Positions 5,531-29,427 of a DNA stretch of 57,662 nucleotides are shown piece after piece. How positions within the stretch are numbered: position 1 is the stretch's first letter; every line of letters begins with the position of its first letter. The position numbers and the translations under genes are program-made. The stretch covers positions 1-57,662 of the forward strand of contig JAKQLP010000140.1 in assembly GCA_029567095.1 (NCBI GenBank). Direction: 5' to 3'. Below the pieces are notes generated by a model. That model was not told the DNA's origin, did not search any database, and saw nothing but the letters and a program-made list of their open reading frames with translations. Origin of the DNA: a bacterium (GTDB lineage: Bacteria; Patescibacteriota; Dojkabacteria; B142; OLB20).

Positions 5531-5776
5531 ATGTTGTATAATTTAATTATTGAGATTAAATTCATGTTAAAAAAACTGATTGCCCCTCTTCAAAAGATAA
5601 TACTCCAAAAAAAATACTGTCCTGCCTGCACTAGGTCTTTAACAAGGGCCAAGATAATGGCCGAAAATGATGTCGAAAAACTGGTAGCATGTAAATGTAA
5701 AAGGATTTTTGTGCATGATCTGGAAACAGACACTTTCCATAGAGCCCTACTCTCTGATATTAGAAGGATTAAGTAA
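5531..5776 (+). CDS. Hypothetical small protein with CPAC...CKC zinc-ribbon-like spacing
   Basis: 81 aa ORF. An internal ATG at 5564 (MLKKLI) is a likelier start. Its stop overlaps the uvrC ATG by 1 nt. Confidence 0.4.
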   Translation: MLYNLIIEIKFMLKKLIAPLQKIILQKKYCPACTRSLTRAKIMAENDVEKLVACKCKRIFVHDLETDTFHRALLSDIRRIK

Positions 5777-9809: not shown

Positions 9810-10130
9810 ATGAATAACCCGGAAAGCACTAGTTCTGATTTAGAAAAGATCAGAGCATTAATTAGGGAACTTATCCCAAGCTACATAGAAGAAATCAAAT
9901 ACGGAATACCTACAGTGATATATAAAGGGAAGAATCTAATCCATTTTGCAGAGTATAAGGATCATATTGGAATATATCCAGGCCCCGAAGCGATCAATGC
10001 TTTTAAAGAGGAATTAAAGACGTTTGGTTTATCTAAAGGCACGATCAGAATCCCCAAAGAACTAGATTTACCAATTAATTTAATAAAGAAAATAGTCCAA
10101 TTTCGGATCAAAGCAATTGATCAGCAATGA
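9810..10130 (+). CDS. DUF1801 (YdhG-like) domain protein
   Basis: 106 aa. IKYGIPTVIYKGKNLIHFAEYKDHIGIYPG...SKGTIRIP matches the YdhG/DUF1801 pattern. Confidence 0.65.
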   Translation: MNNPESTSSDLEKIRALIRELIPSYIEEIKYGIPTVIYKGKNLIHFAEYKDHIGIYPGPEAINAFKEELKTFGLSKGTIRIPKELDLPINLIKKIVQFRIKAIDQQ

Positions 10131-11865: not shown

Positions 11866-11939
11866 TGGAGCGAGATACGGGAATCGAACCCGCGTTCCCT
11901 GCTTGGGAAGCAGGTGTACTACCGCTGTACTAATCTCGC
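11866..11939 (-). tRNA. tRNA-Gly (anticodon CCC), CCA encoded, discriminator U73
   Basis: Reverse complement: GCGAGAT TA GTAC AGCGGTA GTAC A CCTGC TTCCCAA GCAGG GAAC GCGGG TTCGATT CCCGT ATCTCGC T CCA. All stems pair. Confidence 0.9.
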
Positions 11940-12122
11940 TTATTTTTCTTCTTCAATAAGCTGTAATGTTACACCAGCCTCGTCTTTACCAGTAACTTCG
12001 TATTCTATTCCACAGTAGGGACATTCTACGATATCTCCCACTTTTTTCTCTGGATCTAGAACTACTTCATTCTGGCATTCCAGGCAAGTGAATTTATTAT
12101 CAAGTGCTTTGACTTGTTCCAT
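11940..12122 (-). CDS. LysW-like zinc-ribbon protein with acidic C-terminal tail (putative carrier or ligase substrate)
   Basis: 60 aa. CLEC-x17-CPYC with GDIVECPYCGIEYEV closely parallels LysW (GELVVCEDCGAELEV in Thermus, as I recall it). The tail is LIEEEK rather than EDWGE. Confidence 0.6.
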   Translation of the reverse strand: MEQVKALDNKFTCLECQNEVVLDPEKKVGDIVECPYCGIEYEVTGKDEAGVTLQLIEEEK

Positions 12123-12187
12123 AGCTTAAAATTGGAATTAATATTTGCTTTATTATACATTATAATTGTAAAAAGATAATAATAGTT

Positions 12188-13108
12188 ATGTCAATCTGGA
12201 AGGATCCACAATTAGCTAAATACAACGTTATACCTTCAATCCAGCTTACTTTAGATGAAGGTGCTACACCTTTGTATGAAGGTTTTTTTGATAATTACAA
12301 GGTATGGATTAAGAATGAAATGCTTAATCCTAATAATTCCTTCAAGGATAGAAGTCTTGCATATCAGCTCTCCTACTATATCTCAAATGGAGCTAAGAAA
12401 TTTGTAATCAGTTCCTCAGGCAATGCTGCAATAAGTGCTGCCAGCTACATTCCCTTAACTGCTGATGCCGAGATCGATGTTTTTGTAGGGTTTGGGATAA
12501 ATAATAATAAGCTTGAGAGATTAGAAAAGCTGAAATCAGATAGGATCAGGATTCATCAGGGACCCAAGCCTAAATCCGACGCTATAAAATTCGCTAGAAG
12601 TAATAATGCAGTTAATTTAAGAGGATCGATAGATGATCTGGCTTTAACTGGTTTTAAAACTATTGGTTATGAGCTAGCTAGAGAAGCTAAGCAAATAGAT
12701 TCTCTGTTCATTCCTACTAGTTCTGGTACCAGTGCTTTAGCTTTGCATTATGCCTTTGAGGAGATGGGTATGAAAGTCGCTTTATATATTTGTCAGAGCG
12801 AAAAAGTGCATCCCATTGCTTCAGAATTTGATAAGGATTTCAAAGAGAAGCCTGAATCCATGGCTGATGCTATAGTTGATAAAGTTGCACTTCGTAAGCC
12901 TAAGCTTCTGGCCGCTCTAAGGCAGAATGGCGGGGGAGGTTTTGTGCTGTCAGATCATGAAATATTTGAAGCGCAAGCTAAAGCGGGGCTGGCAGGTATT
13001 CCCATGCCTTCATATAATTCAGCATTGGCTTTTGCCGGATTAAGCAAGGCTTTACGTTCCAGTACTATAGATGTGAAAAGGCCATTGATCTTAGTAAGCG
13101 GAATATGA
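12188..13108 (+). CDS. Fold-type II PLP-dependent enzyme, threonine synthase-like (short form)
   Basis: EGATPL...KNEMLNPNNSFKDRSLAY (Lys of SFKDR as the PLP lysine) and SSGNAAISAASY match the ThrC/CysK-type pattern. Only 306 aa. Confidence 0.75.
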   Translation: MSIWKDPQLAKYNVIPSIQLTLDEGATPLYEGFFDNYKVWIKNEMLNPNNSFKDRSLAYQLSYYISNGAKKFVISSSGNAAISAASYIPLTADAEIDVFVGFGINNNKLERLEKLKSDRIRIHQGPKPKSDAIKFARSNNAVNLRGSIDDLALTGFKTIGYELAREAKQIDSLFIPTSSGTSALALHYAFEEMGMKVALYICQSEKVHPIASEFDKDFKEKPESMADAIVDKVALRKPKLLAALRQNGGGGFVLSDHEIFEAQAKAGLAGIPMPSYNSALAFAGLSKALRSSTIDVKRPLILVSGI

Positions 13109-13626
13109 TCCCAATACTCTATCTTTTAGCGCAAATATCCTGCCTATTTCTAATAATCCTCTTTGCTGTATTCTACCTCTGGGCTAATACGTTCGGGGTA
13201 CCTTTTGTCCCTTCAGATAGAAGGATCGTAAATAATATGGTTAATTTCCTAAAGAAGACCAAAGTTAAAAAAGTAGCTGAGCTTGGTGCAGGGGATGGCA
13301 GAGTAGCTTTTGCACTTGCCCGAGAGGGATTTGAAGTTTTAGCTGTTGAAGTTAATCCCTTATTAAGTCTCTGGATGCGATTAGTAAAGTTTGTAAGGAG
13401 ATATAATAAGGTGGAAATTGAGAATAAAGATTTGTTTAAGGTGGATATCAAGGGCATTGATGCTATCATTGTTTATCTCTATCCTGAACATCTTGAAAAA
13501 CTGGAAGAGCGATTCTTTAAGGAAATGCCAAGTGGCAGCTATATCTTGAGCAATACGTTCACTTTTAAAAATCATAAACCTATTGAAAATACCGGTAAAC
13601 TATATATCTATCAAGTAGCAAAATAG
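13105..13626 (+). CDS. Class I SAM-dependent methyltransferase with N-terminal TM helix (FAM173/ATPSCKMT-like layout)
   Basis: ATGA overlap with the upstream gene. TM helix, then GVPFVPS and VAELGAGDGRVAFALAREGFEVLAVEVNP (SAM motif I). Confidence 0.75.
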   Translation: MIPILYLLAQISCLFLIILFAVFYLWANTFGVPFVPSDRRIVNNMVNFLKKTKVKKVAELGAGDGRVAFALAREGFEVLAVEVNPLLSLWMRLVKFVRRYNKVEIENKDLFKVDIKGIDAIIVYLYPEHLEKLEERFFKEMPSGSYILSNTFTFKNHKPIENTGKLYIYQVAK

Positions 13627-13651
13627 TAGAATATATTGCGTTATTATTCTT

Positions 13652-15088
13652 ATGCAAGACAATATCTCAAGTTTAATAGAAAAATTTAAAAGTCATTTTG
13701 CAGATAGCAGATATATATATATTTGTAATGATCCAGAAAGAGCCTTGGGGCTTGAGAGAATAATACCGAACTTTCAAATAGCTCATATTGATCTATCTCA
13801 GTATCTTGATGACTTTCAACGAAATGGAATTAAATACTTCTGTTGGCAAGAGCATGAGGCAGAAATCCCTTTAAGAAGTTCCATAAAATTAATACGATCC
13901 AATCAATTCCTTAATTTCTTTAATCAGGAGAAAGATAAGAAAACATATATTCAAACTTTCAAGATCTCTCCAGCATTTCAACAAAGTGTATCTAATTTAG
14001 GTGCAACTCTGGTTAATACAAGTGCTGATTTAAATAGGATGTTTGAAGATAAGCTCTCACAGTATGAGAATCTATCAGCTCTGCCTATAACCCTTCCCAA
14101 AGGGGCGATTTATCAATTAGATCAAATAGATTATGCCGCCTTAGCATCCCAATTGGGATCGAAATTCGTCCTGCAGTTTAATAAAGGACATACAGGAATG
14201 GGTACGAAGTTTATTAATTCTGAACAGGAATTTAATGAAGTTAAAGCTCAATTCCCAGGCCGTCAGATAAGAGTGGCTCAATTTATTCAAGGGCAAGCCT
14301 ACACTCTAAATGCCTGTGTAGGATCCAAGGGAATATACTTGGGAGGTTTATCAAAACAAATCACTGGAGATCAAAATCTGACAGTTTATGCTGGAGCTAC
14401 TATTGGTAATGACTGGGAATATCGGAAGGAAATAAATAGCGATAACCTTAAACAGATCGAGAATGAAGTTATCATTATTGGAGAAGCAATGAGAACAAAG
14501 GGGTATAAAGGCTTGTTTGGTATTGATCTGATCATTGATATGGAGGGTAAAGCCTTTATCATTGAAATCAATGCCAGACAACCTGCTTCTATTCCTATGT
14601 ACACTAAAATGCAGCTTAAATTGGGACAGATCCCTTTATCCATGATACATGTAGCAGAATTTTGTGGTATAGATTATGAGATTGATCAAAACGAGTATAA
14701 TCAAATTAATTTAGCTCCCCTGCCCTATTCTCAGGTTTTTGTAAGATCTTTTCGAGACTATACTCTTGAATTCCCTTTACGATCGGGGGTGTATAGGCTG
14801 CAGGGAGACAATGCTGCTATAGATAGAATTAGTAGTGAAGTTAAGCCGGACACAATTTTTCTTGACGAGGAAAGAGATGTAGCCCTTCTATTCCAAAAAG
14901 ATGGTTACTGTATTGATGATATTGAACAAGGAGGCCTGTTAATCCTGACACCGGCTAAGAATCGAAAATTGGTAGTCAATGATGAGCTGGGAAGGATCCA
15001 AATTAATTCGAGTGCACACTTGCCTGATGGACAATTACTTTCTTGGATAAGACAGGCACTAATAGCTATTAAGAATTATCAAAGCTAG
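13652..15088 (+). CDS. ATP-grasp ligase (long form, unknown substrate)
   Basis: 478 aa. VLQFNKGHTGMGTKFI, a central domain, and GLFGIDLIIDMEGKAFIIEINARQ (the Mg-ATP E-x-N motif) are ATP-grasp signatures. It carries extra N- and C-terminal domains. Confidence 0.75.
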   Translation: MQDNISSLIEKFKSHFADSRYIYICNDPERALGLERIIPNFQIAHIDLSQYLDDFQRNGIKYFCWQEHEAEIPLRSSIKLIRSNQFLNFFNQEKDKKTYIQTFKISPAFQQSVSNLGATLVNTSADLNRMFEDKLSQYENLSALPITLPKGAIYQLDQIDYAALASQLGSKFVLQFNKGHTGMGTKFINSEQEFNEVKAQFPGRQIRVAQFIQGQAYTLNACVGSKGIYLGGLSKQITGDQNLTVYAGATIGNDWEYRKEINSDNLKQIENEVIIIGEAMRTKGYKGLFGIDLIIDMEGKAFIIEINARQPASIPMYTKMQLKLGQIPLSMIHVAEFCGIDYEIDQNEYNQINLAPLPYSQVFVRSFRDYTLEFPLRSGVYRLQGDNAAIDRISSEVKPDTIFLDEERDVALLFQKDGYCIDDIEQGGLLILTPAKNRKLVVNDELGRIQINSSAHLPDGQLLSWIRQALIAIKNYQS

Positions 15089-15089
15089 T

Positions 15090-15881
15090 ATGAAACAAAT
15101 ACAAATAATGCCCAAAACTGCACAGCAAATGGTATATGAATATCAGCATCTACCATTAGGTGGTAAGTCTGTTGTTTGCCCTTATCATATGAATATCAGG
15201 AAGGAAAGGGTCGGTTTGAGAGTATTAGTCGGGAAAGGTGATCCGGGAGAAATAGTAAAGGAGGTAAAAGTCTGGGCTAAATTAAAAGATTTTGATCTGT
15301 ACTTAGCTGATGAAAAACAGATCCGCGACTTTATGATCGAACGTAGTATTGGTATAGATTGTTCCGGCTTTGTTACCCATGTATTAGGATATTGGATCAA
15401 AAGTGAACATAGAAGAAGGTTGTGGGAATTAGTGGAATATAAAAACAATGATATCTTAAGTAGGATTAGGCGTTTTTTTAGACCTATAGAAAACTTAGGA
15501 GCTAATACCCTTACCAATCTAATTAATTGTGATCCTATCACTAATGTTAATGATATTCAGCCCGGTGATCTGATCAGGAGTAAAGGCAAAGTCAAGAACT
15601 CTCATCATGTTACCTTAATAAGTAAGGTCACAAAAGTGAACGGCAAGACAACAGAGATTGAATATGTGCATTCCCAAAGGTATTACGGGGATCAAAATGG
15701 AGTAAAATTTGGTTTGATAAAAATCACTGATCTAAAAAGGCCTTTGCATAAACAAGAATGGCTAGAGGTACTAGACGGGGTTAATTACACTTGGAACGGA
15801 TATATGAACCAAATAGAGGATAATGGCGTTAGAAGACTAAAAAGGGTTAGAATCCATTTCGATACTTACGAAGAAGAATAA
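15090..15881 (+). CDS. Cytoplasmic NlpC/P60-like cysteine amidase
   Basis: Starts 1 nt after the ATP-grasp stop. GIDCSGFV ... PGDLI...SHHVTLI ... EYVHS gives the canonical Cys-His-His order. No signal peptide. Confidence 0.6.
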   Translation: MKQIQIMPKTAQQMVYEYQHLPLGGKSVVCPYHMNIRKERVGLRVLVGKGDPGEIVKEVKVWAKLKDFDLYLADEKQIRDFMIERSIGIDCSGFVTHVLGYWIKSEHRRRLWELVEYKNNDILSRIRRFFRPIENLGANTLTNLINCDPITNVNDIQPGDLIRSKGKVKNSHHVTLISKVTKVNGKTTEIEYVHSQRYYGDQNGVKFGLIKITDLKRPLHKQEWLEVLDGVNYTWNGYMNQIEDNGVRRLKRVRIHFDTYEEE

Positions 15882-16701: not shown

Positions 16702-17280
16702 ATGAGTAAAAACAAACAAGATAGTGAATTTCATAAAGACAAAGATAAGGAACACAATGTTGAAAATGAGGAGTGTTGTCATTGTGAATGTGAGTGTTGT
16801 GAAGATGGGGAATGTGAAGAGTGTGAGGACTGTAAAGAATGTCTAGATTGTAAGAAGTTGACTGAAGAATTGGAAAAGGAAAAACAATTAAAATTAATGG
16901 CTTTAGCAGATCTCATCAACTACAGAAAAAGAGTAGATAAAGAGCGAGAGGAAATGCATACTCAAGCTAATAGAAGAATCTTGCTACATATTATTGATGT
17001 AATTGATGATCTGTATAGAGCAATGGAAAATGAAAAGGAAAATAACGTGATGAGCATGCTGCTCAATAAATTGGGAACAATACTTAAAGATTATTCTTTA
17101 GAGGAGATCAAATGTGATAAAGGAGATGTATTCAATCCTGAAGTCATGGAGGCAATAACTGCAGTAAATGCCATAAAGGATGATGAGAAGAATAAAGTAG
17201 TGGATATTATCTCAAGAGGATATCGTAACAGTGTGAATGGACAGGTTTTTAAAAGCGTTAAAGTAATAATTGCTAGATAA
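16702..17280 (+). CDS. grpE: Nucleotide exchange factor GrpE with Cys/Glu-rich N-terminal insert
   Basis: LADLINYRKRVDKERE...IIDVIDDL...VFNPEVMEAI...SRGY...VFKSVKVIIA is GrpE. Residues 25-50 hold 11 Cys. Confidence 0.88.
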   Translation: MSKNKQDSEFHKDKDKEHNVENEECCHCECECCEDGECEECEDCKECLDCKKLTEELEKEKQLKLMALADLINYRKRVDKEREEMHTQANRRILLHIIDVIDDLYRAMENEKENNVMSMLLNKLGTILKDYSLEEIKCDKGDVFNPEVMEAITAVNAIKDDEKNKVVDIISRGYRNSVNGQVFKSVKVIIAR

Positions 17281-27838: not shown

Positions 27839-28861
27839 TTAAAGTGAGGTCAGATTTACATCACTAAGATTTGCTTTATCAGCATATATCATAGCTAATC
27901 GATCAATTCCCATGCCTATTCCAGCTACGGTGGGCATACCCAGTTTCATTAATTCAATCATTTCTTTCTCCATATTTATTTGGGGCAATCCTAACTCCTT
28001 TCTTGCTTTTTGCTCTTCAATAAACCTTCTTTCCTGTTCCTGCCAGTCAGTTTGTTCAGTATACCCGTTGGCAATTTCCTTACCAGCCAAGTAAAGTTCG
28101 ACCTTCATTGCTACTAGAGGATCATTAGGATTAACCTTGGTTAAAGGGCAGAGCTGAACAGGATAGTCATAGACAAAGCAGGGCTTGTCTGCTGGTAGAT
28201 TGGGCTCGATCTCATTGGCAAAGATTAATTCAAATAAGCTTTGCCAATCGAATTCTTTAGCATTGTTGTAATGTTTTTTTAAGGCGATGTTTTGGAAATC
28301 GTGTAAAGTTTGGATCTCTTCCAGATCAATTGAGCAATATTGTTTCAAAGCTTGTCTTATTGAGAGCCTGGGGAAAGGGGCGGATAGATCAATATTTTGT
28401 CCCTGATAAGTCAATTTGGAGCTTACAGTCCTTTTTAACTTTCTATCGAGATAATTTTTAATATTTAACAATAATATTTCCGTACTCTCCATTAAATGAG
28501 TATAGTCATGATCAAGTTCATACCATTCCAGCATTGTAAACTCAGGTGCATGGTTGAGACTTAATTCCTCCATGCCTCTAAATACTTTAGAGATAACAAA
28601 GTGATTGCCTAAACCAGCACAAAGCACTAACTTATTGTAGCGCTCTGTTGAAGGAATAAGATAAATTTCCTGGTCCCCAATTTTTGTTGACAGCACATTC
28701 AAGTATCTTTCCTGAGGTAAGGTCGGTGCCAGAATGGGACTTTCCAATTCATGAAATCCTCTTTTATTAAAGAAATTCCTGATGCTTTTGAGTATAAGTT
28801 CTTTAATAAATATACCCTGCCATTTGGAAGGATCGTTTTTTAATTCAATTGCTCTAGGCAT
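27839..28861 (-). CDS. epmA: EF-P lysine aminoacylase (LysRS catalytic-domain paralogue, EpmA/GenX/PoxA)
   Basis: Class II aaRS motifs (GFHELESP; FRGMEELSLNHAPEFTMLEWY; GIGMGIDRLAM) with no anticodon-binding domain, 6 nt downstream of efp. Confidence 0.8.
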   Translation of the reverse strand: MPRAIELKNDPSKWQGIFIKELILKSIRNFFNKRGFHELESPILAPTLPQERYLNVLSTKIGDQEIYLIPSTERYNKLVLCAGLGNHFVISKVFRGMEELSLNHAPEFTMLEWYELDHDYTHLMESTEILLLNIKNYLDRKLKRTVSSKLTYQGQNIDLSAPFPRLSIRQALKQYCSIDLEEIQTLHDFQNIALKKHYNNAKEFDWQSLFELIFANEIEPNLPADKPCFVYDYPVQLCPLTKVNPNDPLVAMKVELYLAGKEIANGYTEQTDWQEQERRFIEEQKARKELGLPQINMEKEMIELMKLGMPTVAGIGMGIDRLAMIYADKANLSDVNLTSL

Positions 28862-28866
28862 GAGGA

Positions 28867-29427
28867 TTAGTTCTCTTTTGAAACGTAAAGTCCTGTCTCA
28901 GTATTGATGACTACTTTATCATCTTGCCTGATAAAAAGAGGGACAAAAACCTTGGCACCGGTTTCCAGAATAGCTTCTTTAGTGGCATTGCCGGAGGTGT
29001 TTCCTTTTACGGCTTCACTGGTTTCAACTACATTCAAAGCAATTTTGGCTGGTAACTGTACTGATATAGCAGCTCCTTCATAGATGATAATTATATACTT
29101 AGCTTCTGTATGAAGGTAATTAGTACCCCCATCAACCATCTCTAGAGGTACTGTTAATTGTTCGAAACTAATAGGATCCATAAAGTAGGCATCCTTTTCA
29201 TCAGCGTAAAGGTATTGCATGGATTTTGTCTCCACCTCTAATTCATCCAGTTTCTCTCCAGATTTAAAAACCTGATTAAGGATTTTACCAGTCTTGATAT
29301 TTTTAATCTTGGTCCTTGTGAAGGCCCCTCCTTTTCCTGGAGAATAAAATTCTTTGGCAATGACAATATAGGGCTCATTATTATAGCTGATTATCATGCC
29401 TTTTCTGATTTCTGTAGTAAATGCCAT
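28867..29427 (-). CDS. efp: Elongation factor P
   Basis: YSPGKGGAFTRTKIKN loop with the modifiable Lys (K32) and three OB/KOW-like domains; 186 aa. Confidence 0.95.
   Translation of the reverse strand: MAFTTEIRKGMIISYNNEPYIVIAKEFYSPGKGGAFTRTKIKNIKTGKILNQVFKSGEKLDELEVETKSMQYLYADEKDAYFMDPISFEQLTVPLEMVDGGTNYLHTEAKYIIIIYEGAAISVQLPAKIALNVVETSEAVKGNTSGNATKEAILETGAKVFVPLFIRQDDKVVINTETGLYVSKEN

What the first reader, a model, noticed from the sequence alone, without database searches (positions are those of the whole stretch)
11940..15881. LysW-like zinc-ribbon protein beside a PLP enzyme / TM-methyltransferase / long ATP-grasp ligase / cytoplasmic NlpC-P60 amidase operon: possible carrier-protein or C-terminal tail modification system
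**The small protein (seen).** The 60-aa protein (11940..12122, minus strand) has CxxC-x17-CxxC with GDIVECPYCGIEYEV and an acidic tail, IEEEK. This is the LysW/ArgW amino-group carrier architecture, except that the terminal EDWGE recognition motif is absent.

**The operon (seen).** Sixty-five nt away, transcribed divergently, sits a tightly coupled four-gene operon:
- A ThrC-like fold-type II PLP enzyme (SFKDR lysine).
- A methyltransferase with an N-terminal TM helix, joined by an ATGA overlap.
- A 478-aa ATP-grasp ligase.
- Starting 1 nt after the ligase stop, an NlpC/P60 Cys-His-His amidase with no signal peptide.

**Established background.** LysW is loaded on its C-terminal Glu by an ATP-grasp (LysX), the cargo is modified while tethered, and a hydrolase then releases it. 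RimK-type ATP-grasps extend acidic protein tails. NlpC/P60 enzymes cut gamma-glutamyl or isopeptide bonds.

**Inference.** The gene set supplies a load (ATP-grasp), modify (PLP enzyme, methyltransferase) and release (amidase) logic around a LysW-like tail. None of the canonical LysZ/Y/J/K enzymes is present, and the genome otherwise looks poor in biosynthetic genes. It could therefore be a non-canonical carrier-protein pathway or a reversible tail-ligation switch.
Basis: partly seen in the sequence, partly recalled or inferred. Interest (0 to 1): 0.75.

Follow-up and report, generated by a model that had tools for sequence, protein, structure and literature searches.

The report
LysW-like protein in cell-wall module
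A tiny acidic zinc-ribbon protein that always ends in Glu-x-Lys is conserved across the ultra-small Patescibacteria beside a threonine-synthase-like enzyme, an ATP-dependent ligase, a cytoplasmic amidase and core cell-wall precursor genes, which points to an undescribed, probably carrier-protein-assisted step in making or recycling their cell wall.

Summary
The window is from a Candidatus Dojkabacteria (Patescibacteria) genome.

- **Small protein.** The 60-aa protein has a LysW-type zinc ribbon (Pfam PF21344, above threshold). It belongs to a separate family of at least 1131 proteins. All 120 relatives examined end in [E/D]-E-[E/G]-K, never in LysW's terminal Glu.
- **Co-occurrence.** The small gene and the PLP gene lie within 10 kb of the ATP-grasp in 33 of 37 well-flanked genome loci.
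- **Two sub-units.** The zinc-ribbon gene and the ThrC-like PLP gene form an almost obligatory divergent pair. The ATP-grasp and the NlpC/P60-like gene form a second pair, fused in one assembly.
In other Patescibacteria both pairs sit inside a murein-precursor cluster: MurB, MraY, an extra MurC/Mpl-like ligase and a Bpt/Fem-like transferase. Starting from the zinc-ribbon side, 23 of 23 well-flanked loci carry MraY, the transferase and the ligase.
- **Family status.** None of the enzymes reaches a characterised family's cut-off. The PLP enzyme lacks the ThrC signature.
- **Reading.** I read this as a carrier-protein-assisted branch of cell-wall precursor synthesis or salvage (confidence about 0.4). 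Canonical LysW amino-acid biosynthesis is excluded.
- **Literature.** No paper in the held library describes the module.

The parts
11866..11939 (-). tRNA-Gly(CCC), starting directly after the ZnR stop codon. This is a lineage-specific companion gene, probably co-transcribed with ZnR.
   Evidence: Found by ARAGORN and by Rfam as tRNA at 68 bits. A tRNA-Gly(CCC) or tRNA-Thr(CGT) follows ZnR on the same strand in Dojkabacteria loci L001-L004, L007-L009, L012 and L046, but not in distant Patescibacteria.
11940..12122 (-). ZnR: a 60-aa acidic LysW-fold zinc-ribbon protein with the conserved tail [E/D]-E-[E/G]-K-COOH. It is the proposed carrier or tail substrate.
   Evidence: It matches PF21344 at 38.2 bits against a gathering score of 27, and solved LysW chains 5k2m and 3wwl at E of about 1e-3. 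The four Cys, N18, G38 and the C-terminal K60 are invariant. All 120 relatives end in K, with E at position -3 in all 120. Median net charge is -9.
12123..12187 (.). 65-nt divergent intergenic region between ZnR and the PLP operon.
   Evidence: It holds promoter-like hexamers on both strands: the minus strand at 12194..12165 (TTGACA-18-TACAAT, 11 of 12) and the plus strand at 12138..12166 (10 of 12). The region as a whole has no more such sites than shuffled sequence. No Rfam element was found.
12188..13108 (+). ThrC-like fold-type II PLP enzyme. It is the obligatory divergent neighbour of ZnR.
   Evidence: It matches PALP at 1e-33. Its closest solved relatives are threonine synthases (6cgq at 1.5e-31), followed by Thr dehydratase, Asp and Ser racemases, SbnA and CysK/M. 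The ThrC signature NSVNPxRxEGQKT is replaced by LRGSxDDxAxxGxKT, and TGNT by SGNA. All ThrC models score far below their cut-offs. ZnR accompanies the PLP gene in 56 of 59 loci, and is adjacent on the opposite strand in 52 of those 56.
13105..13626 (+). Small class I SAM methyltransferase with an N-terminal TM helix, related to aKMT and FAM173-type N-methyltransferases.
   Evidence: ATGA overlap with the PLP gene. NCBIfam gives archaeal protein-lysine N-methyltransferase at 6.6e-7 and Erm/KsgA at 1e-8. PDB gives 5bxy at 3e-11 and the aKMT chains 5fa8 and 5jwj at 2.5e-8. The gene is present in 19 of 37 well-flanked loci. It follows the P60 gene in L058, L065 and L067.
13652..15088 (+). 478-aa ATP-grasp amide ligase from an uncharacterised deep branch.
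   Evidence: It matches ATP-grasp_3 at 39.6 bits. The best NCBIfam model is PRK06524 at 107 bits against a cut-off of 684. RimK family scores 16.6 against 143, and Ddl 15.7 against 243. The AF2 model has pLDDT 92. The best folds are biotin carboxylase, PurK and BacD at TM of about 0.6. The profile against PDB gives only 7r8p and BesA at E of about 5e-4.
15090..15881 (+). 263-aa cytoplasmic papain-like (NlpC/P60-type) Cys-His amidase, translationally coupled to the ligase.
   Evidence: Its start codon is 1 nt after the ligase stop. C91 and H173 are invariant, and H194 is His or Asn. The orthologue in L077 reaches the NLPC_P60 gathering score, 23.8 against 23. The AF2 model has pLDDT 91.5. The best folds are MepS (probability 0.96), IdeS and Gsp amidase, all weak. 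The gene is adjacent to the ATP-grasp in 35 of 37 well-flanked loci and fused to it in L080.

Best explanation
**What it is.** The five genes are the Dojkabacteria arrangement of a gene module conserved across Patescibacteria. The other constant members of the module are murein-precursor genes: MraY, an extra MurC/Mpl-like UDP-MurNAc ligase, a Bpt/Fem-like aminoacyl transferase and MurB.

**Shown.**
- The small protein has a LysW-type zinc ribbon and is strongly acidic.
- Its tail is invariably [E/D]-E-[E/G]-K-COOH.
- It is locked next to a ThrC-like PLP enzyme whose substrate pocket is not that of threonine synthase.
- The ATP-grasp and a cytoplasmic Cys-His papain-like hydrolase form a coupled pair, occasionally fused.

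**Inferred.**
- The small protein is a carrier, built like lysine-loaded LysW.
- The ATP-grasp makes an ATP-dependent amide bond at the tail. The site would be the gamma-carboxyl of the invariant Glu at -3, or the terminal Lys.
- The PLP enzyme, and where present the membrane-anchored aKMT-like methyltransferase, act on the tethered amino-acid moiety or on the Lys amine.
- The P60 amidase releases the product and regenerates the carrier.
- The released amino acid or short peptide is handed to the MurC/Mpl-like ligase and MraY for lipid I synthesis.

**Confidence by layer.**
- The module is real and linked to the cell wall: about 0.8.
- The small protein is the tail substrate or carrier of these enzymes: about 0.4.
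- Any specific chemistry: below 0.15.
For: - **Fold and tail.** LysW-type fold and conserved tail.
- **ZnR-PLP pair.** ZnR accompanies the PLP gene in 56 of 59 loci. The pair is moved or inverted as a unit in L010, L013, L026, L057, L062, L068, L075, L077 and L079.
- **Ligase-amidase pair.** The P60 gene is present in 35 of 37 well-flanked loci. The two genes are 1 nt apart in the window and fused in L080.
- **Both pairs together.** 33 of 37 well-flanked loci found from the ligase side, and 18 of 23 found from the ZnR side.
- **Cell-wall context.** MraY, MurB, FtsW, MurG, MurF, FtsI and the extra MurC/Mpl-like ligase. From the ZnR side, MraY, the transferase and the Mpl-like ligase are each present in 23 of 23 well-flanked loci.
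- **Replacement by a tail ligase.** The organism of L154 and L158 has no copy of this ATP-grasp within 10 kb. It carries a RimK/LysX-family ATP-grasp (TIGR00768 at 118.6 bits) and another methyltransferase inside the cluster. RimK and LysX are the ATP-grasps known to work on acidic protein C-termini.
- **PLP enzyme.** It is not a genuine ThrC. Its next-nearest relatives include amine- and carrier-using beta-replacement enzymes (SbnA, CysM) and racemases.
- **Methyltransferase.** Its nearest relatives include protein-lysine N-methyltransferases.
- **Electrostatics.** ZnR has pI 4.2, against PLP 8.9, MT 9.5 and P60 9.3.
Against: - **No direct evidence.** No modification of the tail has been observed.
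- **Short tail.** Only 4 to 5 residues extend past the last predicted strand, against about 10 in LysW as I recall it.
- **Lys terminus.** The tail ends in Lys, so LysX chemistry does not transfer directly.
- **Ligase family and charge.** The ATP-grasp is not of the RimK/LysX family (16.6 bits against 143). It is acidic overall, pI 5.5.
- **Incomplete linkage.** Five of 23 ZnR-side loci lack the ligase-amidase pair within 10 kb. Several Magasanikbacteria loci have the ligase, the amidase and in some cases the MT with no ZnR or PLP gene nearby. The two pairs can therefore be uncoupled, at least physically.
- **No fusions.** No ZnR fusion to any enzyme was found.
- **Single assemblies.** The RimK-like replacement and the ligase-amidase fusion are each seen in one organism or assembly only.
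- **Simpler reading.** The cell-wall context is also explained by a carrier-free pathway.
Confidence: 0.4

Rival explanations
1. **Carrier-free cell-wall peptide salvage or tailoring.**
- The cytoplasmic P60 enzyme trims imported or turned-over murein peptides, as YkfC does.
- The ATP-grasp re-ligates or adds an amino acid, as Ddl, the D-Asp ligase or L-amino-acid ligases do.
- The PLP enzyme supplies an unusual or D-amino acid.
- The Mpl-like ligase puts the peptide back on UDP-MurNAc for MraY.
- The zinc-ribbon protein is only an accessory or regulatory subunit of the PLP enzyme or the Mpl-like ligase.
For: - The cell-wall gene context is dense and conserved.
- The ligase next to ZnR scores almost equally as MurC and as Mpl (253 against 233 bits, and 273 against 266). 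A clear MurC is also present in the same locus, L061.
- Cytoplasmic NlpC/P60 peptidases working with Mpl in murein peptide recycling are documented in Bacillus and in the reduced-genome Chlamydia (PMC9928106).
- Bacteroides proteins deposited as putative dipeptidyl-peptidase VI (3npf, 3pvq, 4r0k), which I recall as YkfC-type enzymes, appear among the weak fold matches.
- Asp and Ser racemases are among the nearer relatives of the PLP enzyme.
- Patescibacteria are thought to depend on hosts for building blocks (general knowledge).
Against: - It gives no reason for the invariance of the Glu-x-Lys C-terminus, the most conserved part of the small protein.
- It gives no reason for the LysW-type fold and charge.
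- It does not explain the RimK/LysX-type ligase that appears in the cluster in L154.
- The ATP-grasp is not Ddl-like or Asl-like at family level.
- The P60 protein is only distantly like YkfC.
Confidence: 0.25
2. **Reversible tail-ligation switch.** The ATP-grasp and the P60 enzyme add and remove a residue at the acidic C-terminus of the zinc-ribbon protein. The genome-encoded terminal Lys is the starting state. This parallels the tubulin tyrosine ligase / vasohibin cycle and RimK acting on ribosomal protein S6. The state of the tail would regulate the PLP enzyme or murein-precursor flux. The protein would not carry an intermediate.
For: - The ligase plus papain-like hydrolase pair is sometimes fused, like the bifunctional glutathionylspermidine synthetase/amidase, which appears among the fold matches.
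- The tail is acidic with an encoded terminal residue.
- ZnR is transcribed separately, on the opposite strand from the enzymes, in almost all loci.
Against: - There is no evidence for a regulatory target.
- The tight pairing with a PLP enzyme and a methyltransferase fits a biosynthetic logic better.
- A switch does not need the LysW carrier architecture.
Confidence: 0.12
3. **Two-component amidotransferase.** The P60 enzyme hydrolyses a gamma-glutamyl amide, for example glutamine, to supply ammonia. The ATP-grasp uses the ammonia to amidate a carboxylate of the murein precursor. This is analogous to MurT/GatD or to CarA/CarB. The zinc-ribbon protein and the PLP enzyme would be a separate function.
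For: - The ATP-grasp resembles biotin carboxylase and carbamoyl-phosphate synthetase large-subunit domains in fold and in weak profile hits.
- The pairing with a Cys-His hydrolase is obligatory, with one fusion.
- The pair is located between MurB and MraY.
Against: - As far as I know, no papain-like or NlpC/P60 glutaminase subunit has been described.
- The frequent adjacency to ZnR and PLP is left unexplained.
- The closest sequence matches of the ligase are amino-acid ligases: BesA, MfnD and LdmS.
Confidence: 0.08
4. **Canonical LysW/ArgW pathway.** Lysine or arginine is made through the alpha-aminoadipate/glutamate carrier route.
For: The Pfam LysW globular-domain hit. Some sources name relatives 'lysine biosynthesis protein LysW'.
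Against: - Both NCBIfam LysW models score far below their cut-offs.
- No relative ends in Glu.
- No LysX, LysZ, LysY, LysJ or LysK-type genes appear among the conserved neighbours or in the annotated contigs.
- The ATP-grasp fails the RimK/LysX family model.
Confidence: 0.02
5. **Unrelated neighbours.** The five genes share no function and lie together by chance in a compact genome.
For: Small genomes are gene-dense. In the window itself the flanking genes are unrelated housekeeping genes.
Against: Linkage persists over protein identities down to 30-35%, through inversions and transpositions of sub-units, and in several Patescibacteria lineages.
Confidence: 0.03

Closest known systems
LysW/ArgW amino-group carrier protein systems (LysW with LysX, LysZ, LysY, LysJ, LysK), and AmCP pathways of Streptomyces
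   Same: A small acidic zinc-ribbon protein of the same Pfam domain, with a short acidic C-terminal tail. It is encoded next to an ATP-grasp ligase, modifying enzymes and a hydrolase. The tail positions D(-4) and G(-2) of the DEGK variant match EDWGE.
   Different: - The tail ends in an invariant Lys, not Glu.
- The NCBIfam LysW cut-offs are not met.
- The ligase is not of the RimK/LysX family.
- No kinase, reductase, aminotransferase or M20 hydrolase is present.
- The partners are a ThrC-like PLP enzyme, a papain-like amidase and murein-precursor genes.
CysO-CysM-Mec+ (carrier-protein-dependent cysteine synthesis), and SbnA
   Same: A fold-type II PLP beta-replacement enzyme is encoded beside a small carrier protein whose C-terminus is the nucleophile, and a dedicated hydrolase releases the product. 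SbnA shows that this fold can use an amine nucleophile. CysM and SbnA are among the relatives of the PLP enzyme.
   Different: - The carrier here is a zinc ribbon, not a ubiquitin-like beta-grasp protein.
- It has no GG terminus, and no adenylating or sulfur-transfer enzyme is present.
- The hydrolase is papain-like, not a JAMM metalloprotease.
- The PLP enzyme is nearer to ThrC than to CysM.
Glutathionylspermidine synthetase/amidase (GspSA), and the tubulin tyrosine ligase / vasohibin cycle
   Same: An ATP-grasp-type amide ligase is coupled, and in GspSA fused, to a cytoplasmic papain-like or CHAP Cys-His amidase that undoes the same bond. TTL acts on an acidic protein C-terminus whose last residue is genome-encoded.
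   Different: There is no sequence-level membership. The Gsp amidase is only a weak fold match (E 0.03). The substrate here is unknown.
Murein peptide recycling: Mpl with cytoplasmic YkfC-type NlpC/P60 peptidases
   Same: A cytoplasmic NlpC/P60-type peptidase and a MurC/Mpl-like UDP-MurNAc ligase are encoded together with MraY and MurB. There is a precedent in a reduced-genome bacterium (PMC9928106).
   Different: - The P60 protein here has no SH3b domains and is very divergent.
- The ligase is below both the MurC and the Mpl cut-offs.
- Known recycling pathways contain no ATP-grasp, no ThrC-like enzyme and no zinc-ribbon protein.
RimK acting on ribosomal protein S6
   Same: An ATP-grasp acts on an acidic protein C-terminus. 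A RimK-family ligase sits inside this cluster in one lineage (L154).
   Different: The window's ligase is not a RimK family member (16.6 bits against 143.4). The target is not a ribosomal protein.

Membership tests
LysW/ArgW carrier protein | LysW-type zinc-ribbon globular domain | tested here: met
   PF21344 at 38.2 bits against a gathering score of 27. All 120 listed relatives carry PF21344. Solved LysW chains match at E of about 1e-3.
LysW/ArgW carrier protein | Reaches the curated NCBIfam LysW scores | tested here: not met
   TIGR01206 at 24.8 bits against 53.2. NF041070 at 37 bits against 75.
LysW/ArgW carrier protein | C-terminal EDWGE-type tail ending in Glu, the attachment residue | tested here: not met
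   None of 120 relatives ends in Glu; all 120 end in Lys. The consensus is [ED]-E-[EG]-K. The LysW motif itself is recalled from the literature.
LysW/ArgW carrier protein | Encoded with LysX/ArgX and LysZ/Y/J/K-type enzymes | tested here: not met
   The conserved neighbour families are a PLP enzyme, an ATP-grasp of another branch, P60, MT, MraY, a Mur ligase, an ATE_C-like protein and MurB. None of the Lys/Arg enzymes appears in the annotated contigs.
LysW/ArgW carrier protein | Covalent loading of a substrate on the tail | not testable with these tools
   Needs intact-mass spectrometry or enzymology.
RimK/LysX ATP-grasp ligases | Family model score | tested here: not met
   TIGR00768 at 16.6 bits against 143.4, covering residues 111-201 only. 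The unrelated 304-aa ligase of L154 scores 118.6.
D-Ala-D-Ala ligase (Ddl) | Family model score | tested here: not met
   NF002378 at 15.7 bits against 243. No Ddl structure appears among the top 50 fold matches listed.
ATP-grasp superfamily | ATP-grasp domain and three-domain fold | tested here: met
   PF02655 at 39.6 bits against 23.2. The AF2 model has pLDDT 92. Foldseek gives E of about 1e-17 to biotin carboxylase, PurK and BacD.
NlpC/P60 (C40) peptidases | Pfam gathering score | tested here: inconclusive
   The window protein scores 16.5 bits against 23. The orthologue in L077 scores 23.8 against 23. A few relatives are precomputed as PF00877 or PF12671.
NlpC/P60 (C40) peptidases | Catalytic Cys (in DCSG) and His, plus a third polar residue, on a papain-like fold | tested here: met
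   C91 and H173 are invariant, and H194 is His or Asn. The best fold match is MepS at probability 0.96, with low TM scores.
Threonine synthase (ThrC) | Curated family scores | tested here: not met
   The best model, NF004170, scores 98.7 bits against 421. TIGR00260 scores 48.6 against 167.
Threonine synthase (ThrC) | Signature NSxNPxRxEGQKT and TGNT loops. Their role in binding the substrate phosphate is recalled from the literature. | tested here: not met
   The three solved ThrCs aligned here all have (L/I)VNSVNPxR(L/I)EGQKT and STGNT. This family has LRGSxDDxAxxGxKT and SSGNA.
Fold-type II PLP enzymes | PALP domain with the Schiff-base Lys | tested here: met
   PF00291 at 117.5 bits. K53 in SFKDR is invariant.
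aKMT / FAM173-type protein-lysine N-methyltransferases | Family model score, and similarity to solved members | tested here: inconclusive
   NF041081 at 29.5 bits against 200. The aKMT chains 5fa8 and 5jwj match at E 2.5e-8, and 5bxy at 3e-11. The substrate is unknown.
MurC / Mpl (the ligase next to ZnR in other lineages) | Curated family scores | tested here: inconclusive
   MurC scores 253-273 bits against 335, and Mpl 233-266 against 389. The second ligase of L061 scores MurC 288 and Mpl 135.

The most novel reading that the evidence does not exclude
Patescibacteria build or edit a murein stem-peptide building block while it is tethered to a LysW-like protein that is genetically pre-loaded with lysine.
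- One possible chemistry: the ThrC-like PLP enzyme adds an aminocarboxy-alkyl group to the carrier's Lys epsilon-amine, making a DAP-like diamino-dicarboxylic acid.
- Another: the PLP enzyme inverts the configuration of a Glu or Asp that the ATP-grasp has tethered.
- The P60 amidase then releases the product.
- A dedicated MurC/Mpl-like ligase puts it on UDP-MurNAc for MraY.

This would be the first carrier-protein-dependent step in peptidoglycan precursor synthesis.
Probability: 0.15. Interest if true: 0.9.

Novelty: new variant of a known kind. Interest (0 to 1): 0.7.

Why it matters
- **Cell-wall biology.** Patescibacteria are a very large, mostly uncultured branch of bacteria. They have minimal biosynthetic capacity yet possess a peptidoglycan wall, and how they obtain and assemble its unusual building blocks is poorly known.
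- **A new pathway component.** A conserved module that joins a LysW-type carrier-like protein to MraY, MurB and an extra UDP-MurNAc ligase would add a new kind of component to one of the best-studied bacterial pathways.
- **Wider use of carriers.** It would extend amino-group carrier proteins beyond Lys/Arg and natural-product biosynthesis.
- **Practical value.** It could offer lineage-specific targets or markers.
- **Testability.** The small protein, with its invariant Glu-x-Lys end, is a simple handle for intact-mass assays.
- **If no carrier is involved.** The module would still define an uncharacterised ATP-grasp/amidase pair and a non-ThrC branch of ThrC-like enzymes tied to cell-wall synthesis.

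Tried and rejected
- **Solved-structure searches.**
  - The ATP-grasp gave only generic or marginal matches by sequence and by profile.
  - By fold it gave biotin carboxylase, PurK and BacD at TM of about 0.6. No substrate could be inferred.
  - The P60 model matched papain-like and NlpC/P60 structures only weakly.
- **Fusions.** I looked for ZnR fused to the PLP enzyme or to other enzymes.
  - All 120 best ZnR relatives are 52-71 aa.
  - The few long PLP representatives have N-terminal extensions without a CxxC zinc-ribbon motif, which I take to be mis-called starts.
- **RNA elements.** Rfam found only tRNAs and no riboswitch in the window and four loci.
- **Promoters and terminators.** The scan gave no more sites than shuffled sequence.
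- **Cell-wall genes in the window.** Of the ORFs scanned, only an LCP-family protein and a PGA_cap protein, far from the operon, relate to the cell envelope. The cell-wall link therefore rests on relatives, not on this window.
- **Literature.**
  - Six full-text searches found nothing on this module.
  - The one hit that I read was unrelated.
  - The Iyer et al. 2009 amidoligase survey is not held.
A scan restricted to the DEGK subfamily worked.
  - One Rfam call exceeded the size limit.
- **Readings rejected.**
  - ZnR as a ribosomal protein, RpoP or Elf1, as some sources name it. It is acidic, and its best hit is the LysW domain.
  - The PLP enzyme as a genuine threonine synthase.
  - The ATP-grasp as Ddl or RimK.
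  - Genome-wide presence/absence profiles.

Full report
**1. Observation.**

- The zinc-ribbon protein, ZnR, 11940..12122 (-).
- The PLP enzyme, 12188..13108 (+).
- The methyltransferase, MT, 13105..13626 (+).
- The ATP-grasp, AG, 13652..15088 (+).
- The P60-like protein, 15090..15881 (+).

The spacing is as described: a 65-nt divergent gap, an ATGA overlap, and a 1-nt gap between the AG stop and the P60 start. HrcA, GrpE and DnaK follow downstream. The closest relatives of AG are from Candidatus Dojkabacteria (WS6) and other Patescibacteria.

**2. What each protein is.**

*ZnR.*
- It matches Pfam Zn_ribbon_LysW above threshold, 38.2 bits against 27.
- It matches solved LysW chains weakly.
- It fails both NCBIfam LysW models.

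*PLP enzyme.*
- It is a fold-type II enzyme nearest to threonine synthases.
- It is far below every ThrC cut-off.
- The three solved ThrCs aligned here all read (L/I)VNSVNPxR(L/I)EGQKT and STGNT. This family reads LRGSxDDxAxxGxKT and SSGNA.
- I recall those ThrC loops as the phosphate-binding site for phosphohomoserine.
- The enzyme is therefore ThrC-like but not a threonine synthase.
- Its next relatives are Thr dehydratases, Asp and Ser racemases, SbnA and CysK/CysM.

*MT.*
- It has an N-terminal hydrophobic helix.
- It is nearest to small seven-beta-strand N-methyltransferases. These include the archaeal protein-lysine methyltransferase aKMT.

*AG.*
- It is a bona fide ATP-grasp from an uncharacterised branch.
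- RimK, LysX and Ddl models are not met.
- The confident AF2 model (pLDDT 92) resembles biotin carboxylase, PurK and BacD only generically.
- The nearest sequence-level solved relatives are amino-acid ligases at marginal E-values.

*P60.*
- It is a divergent papain-like protein.
- The DCSG Cys and one His are invariant, and the third residue is His or Asn.
- An orthologue reaches the NLPC_P60 threshold.
- The AF2 model (pLDDT 91.5) matches MepS, IdeS and the glutathionylspermidine amidase only weakly.
- It has no signal peptide.

**3. The small protein defines its own family.**
- A profile search found 1131 proteins at E of 1e-3 or better.
- The 120 best are 52-71 aa, and all carry PF21344.
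- Every one ends in Lys. Tail position -4 is E or D, -3 is E (120 of 120), -2 is E or G, and -1 is K (120 of 120).
- In a 22-sequence alignment spanning the family, the only invariant positions are the four Cys, N18, G38 and the C-terminal Lys.
- Median net charge is -9 and median pI is 4.2.
- The architecture is that of LysW: zinc ribbon, short strand, acidic tail.
- The business end differs, and it resembles LysW already carrying lysine.
- The DEGK variant shares D(-4) and G(-2) with LysW's EDWGE, a motif I recall from the literature.

**4.

A scan of one genome per species returned 80 loci that contain AG. Thirty-seven of the AG-containing loci analysed have at least 8 kb on both sides of AG. 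Counts among those 37 are:

| Gene | Loci out of 37 |
|---|---|
| P60 | 35 |
| ZnR | 33 |
| PLP | 33 |
| MT | 19 |

The genes fall into two sub-units:
- **ZnR and PLP are an almost obligatory divergent pair.**
  - ZnR accompanies the PLP gene in 56 of 59 loci. The three exceptions are contig ends.
  - ZnR is adjacent on the opposite strand in 52 of those 56.
  - The pair is inverted or displaced as a unit.
- **AG and P60 are a second unit.** They are fused into one 676-aa ORF in L080 (one assembly only).

No ZnR fusion to any enzyme was seen.

**5. The wider context is cell-wall precursor synthesis.**

*Neighbour families.* Clustering all neighbouring ORFs and annotating the recurrent families gave these:
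- MraY.
- MurB.
- FtsW/RodA.
- MurG.
- A three-domain Mur ligase.
- An ATE_C/arginyltransferase (Bpt)-like protein of about 220 aa.

*Gene order.*
- In non-Dojkabacteria lineages the order is typically HPF< MurB< AG> P60> MraY> Bpt-like> Mur ligase> ZnR< PLP>.
- Contigs retrieved from the ZnR side show the same order.

*The extra ligase.*
- The ligase next to ZnR scores almost equally as MurC and as Mpl. The scores are 253 against 233 bits and 273 against 266, below both cut-offs.
- The same locus, L061, also has an unambiguous MurC after MurG.
- The ZnR-adjacent enzyme is therefore an extra MurC/Mpl-like paralogue.

*Scan from the ZnR side.* An independent metagenome scan used the DEGK-type ZnR subfamily. 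It gave 23 loci with at least 7.5 kb on each side:

| Gene | Loci out of 23 |
|---|---|
| MraY | 23 |
| Bpt-like transferase | 23 |
| Mpl-like ligase | 23 |
| PLP | 22 |
| AG | 18 |
| P60 | 18 |
| MurB | 14 |

*Variations on the cluster.*
- A NUDIX gene often sits between ZnR and the ligase.
- In L055, L057 and L079 the Bpt-like gene is replaced at the same position by a DgcN-like N-acetyltransferase.
- Where AG and P60 are missing, L136 has MurF and FtsI next to MraY.

*The Dojkabacteria arrangement.*
- The module is rearranged to MraY< x> UvrC> HTH< ZnR< PLP> MT> AG> P60>.
- The Mpl-like ligase follows directly after P60 in L004, L005, L007 and L011.
- In the window and its two closest relatives MraY is no longer nearby.

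**6. A telling substitution.**
- The organism of L154 and L158 has MraY, the Bpt-like gene, the Mpl-like ligase, ZnR and PLP, but no copy of this AG or P60 within 10 kb.
- Between the Bpt-like gene and the ligase it carries a 304-aa RimK-family ATP-grasp. That protein scores 118.6 bits on TIGR00768 and 79 bits on LysX_arch.
- It also carries a different 230-aa methyltransferase.
- RimK and LysX are the ATP-grasps known to act on acidic protein C-termini. Their appearance at this place is the best indirect support for the idea that an ATP-grasp works on the ZnR tail.
- It is a single lineage.

**7. Mechanism.**

*Shown.* The points in sections 2 to 6.

*Inferred.*
- ZnR is a carrier-like partner, and its Glu(-3)-x-Lys(-1) end is the functional site.
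- AG forms an amide there, either at the gamma-carboxyl of the invariant Glu, as in LysW, or at the Lys.
- The PLP enzyme, and the lysine-methyltransferase-like MT where present, act on the tethered group or on the Lys amine.
- P60 hydrolyses the link.
- The product enters murein synthesis through the MurC/Mpl-like ligase and MraY.

*Precedents for the individual steps.*
- LysW with LysX and LysK.
- CysO, CysM and Mec+, where a carrier C-terminus enters a fold-type II PLP enzyme.
- SbnA, which uses an amine nucleophile.
- Glutathionylspermidine synthetase/amidase, and TTL with vasohibin, as ligase-amidase pairs.

*Electrostatics.* These are compatible but not discriminating. ZnR has pI 4.2, against PLP 8.9, MT 9.5, P60 9.3 and AG 5.5.

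**8. Rivals.**
- **Carrier-free salvage or tailoring.**
  - This is the strongest rival.
  - A YkfC-like cytoplasmic peptidase would work with an Mpl-like ligase. This is documented in Bacillus and Chlamydia (PMC9928106).
  - It explains the context but not the invariant tail.
- **Regulatory tail switch.**
- **AG plus P60 amidotransferase.**
- **Canonical LysW biosynthesis.** This is excluded by the tail, the curated scores and the neighbours.
- **Chance adjacency.** This is excluded by the synteny.

**9. Novelty and limits.**
- Full-text searches found no description of this module.
- I class it as a new variant of a known kind: a carrier-protein or ligase-amidase system, relocated into murein precursor synthesis.
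- There is no biochemical evidence.
- I could run no genome-wide presence/absence analysis and no complex modelling.
- The fusion and the RimK-like replacement each rest on one assembly.
- Several record titles ('uncultured Gammaproteobacteria' or 'Saccharibacteria') are doubtful labels for contigs whose gene content is Patescibacteria-like.

Noticed in passing
window 11866-11939 (-); L001-L004, L007-L009, L012, L046: A tRNA-Gly(CCC) starts directly after the ZnR stop codon. In Dojkabacteria relatives a tRNA-Gly(CCC) and/or tRNA-Thr(CGT) follows ZnR on the same strand, but not in distant Patescibacteria. This could simply mean co-transcription. Since a Bpt/Fem-like aminoacyl-tRNA transferase homologue belongs to the module, a donor-tRNA role is conceivable but untested.
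   Followed up: partly
L154 and L158, 11607-13249 (-): A RimK/LysX-family ATP-grasp (304 aa) and a 230-aa class I methyltransferase sit between the Bpt-like gene and the Mpl-like ligase. This organism has no copy of the window-type ATP-grasp/P60 pair within 10 kb.
   Followed up: partly
L080, the 676-aa ORF beginning near 10001 (+): The ATP-grasp and the P60-like amidase form one open reading frame, an apparent fusion. It is seen in a single assembly, so an assembly indel cannot be excluded.
   Followed up: no
L083-L162 (for example L136 10224-10772) and L081 14151-14570: A NUDIX hydrolase gene recurs inside the module. It lies between ZnR and the Mpl-like ligase in many DEGK-type loci, and between the ATP-grasp and P60 in L081. 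Its substrate could be a UDP-linked precursor, but this is unexplained.
   Followed up: no
L055, L057, L079 (for example L079 6720-7871): A DgcN-like N-acetyltransferase (E 2e-62) takes the position that the Bpt/ATE_C-like gene holds elsewhere, between MraY and the Mpl-like ligase. I recall DgcN as an enzyme of D-glutamate metabolism.
   Followed up: no
L017, L043, L049, L052 and relatives (family f2), upstream of the PLP gene: One Dojkabacteria subclade has longer ZnR variants of 80-126 aa, with an insertion of about 20-60 residues between the two CxxC knuckles. Their tails are PSEEEK, HEEEK, TVLEK or SDMIK, and the terminal Lys is kept.
   Followed up: no
window 16702-17280 (+): GrpE carries an unusual N-terminal extension of about 49 aa, outside the Pfam GrpE domain. 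It is very rich in Cys and Glu (EECCHCECECCEDGECEECEDCKECLDCKK), so a metal- or redox-sensing role is possible.
   Followed up: no
window 27839-29427 (-): A truncated class II Lys/Asp/Asn-type tRNA-synthetase paralogue (340 aa), which I read as EpmA/PoxA-like, lies directly next to EF-P. This suggests EF-P lysylation in this reduced genome.
   Followed up: no
window 5531-5776 (+), and family f9 in Dojkabacteria loci: A conserved small ORF of 67-81 aa, with Cys pairs and no Pfam match, sits immediately upstream of UvrC, with MraY on its other side in most of these loci.
   Followed up: no
L055, L057, L060, L062, L063, L067, L070-L080 (record titles): The records are titled 'uncultured Gammaproteobacteria' or 'Saccharibacteria'. 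They carry the same module and gene order as contigs labelled Patescibacteria, Magasanikbacteria or Dojkabacteria, so the taxonomic labels of these TPA MAGs look unreliable.
   Followed up: no
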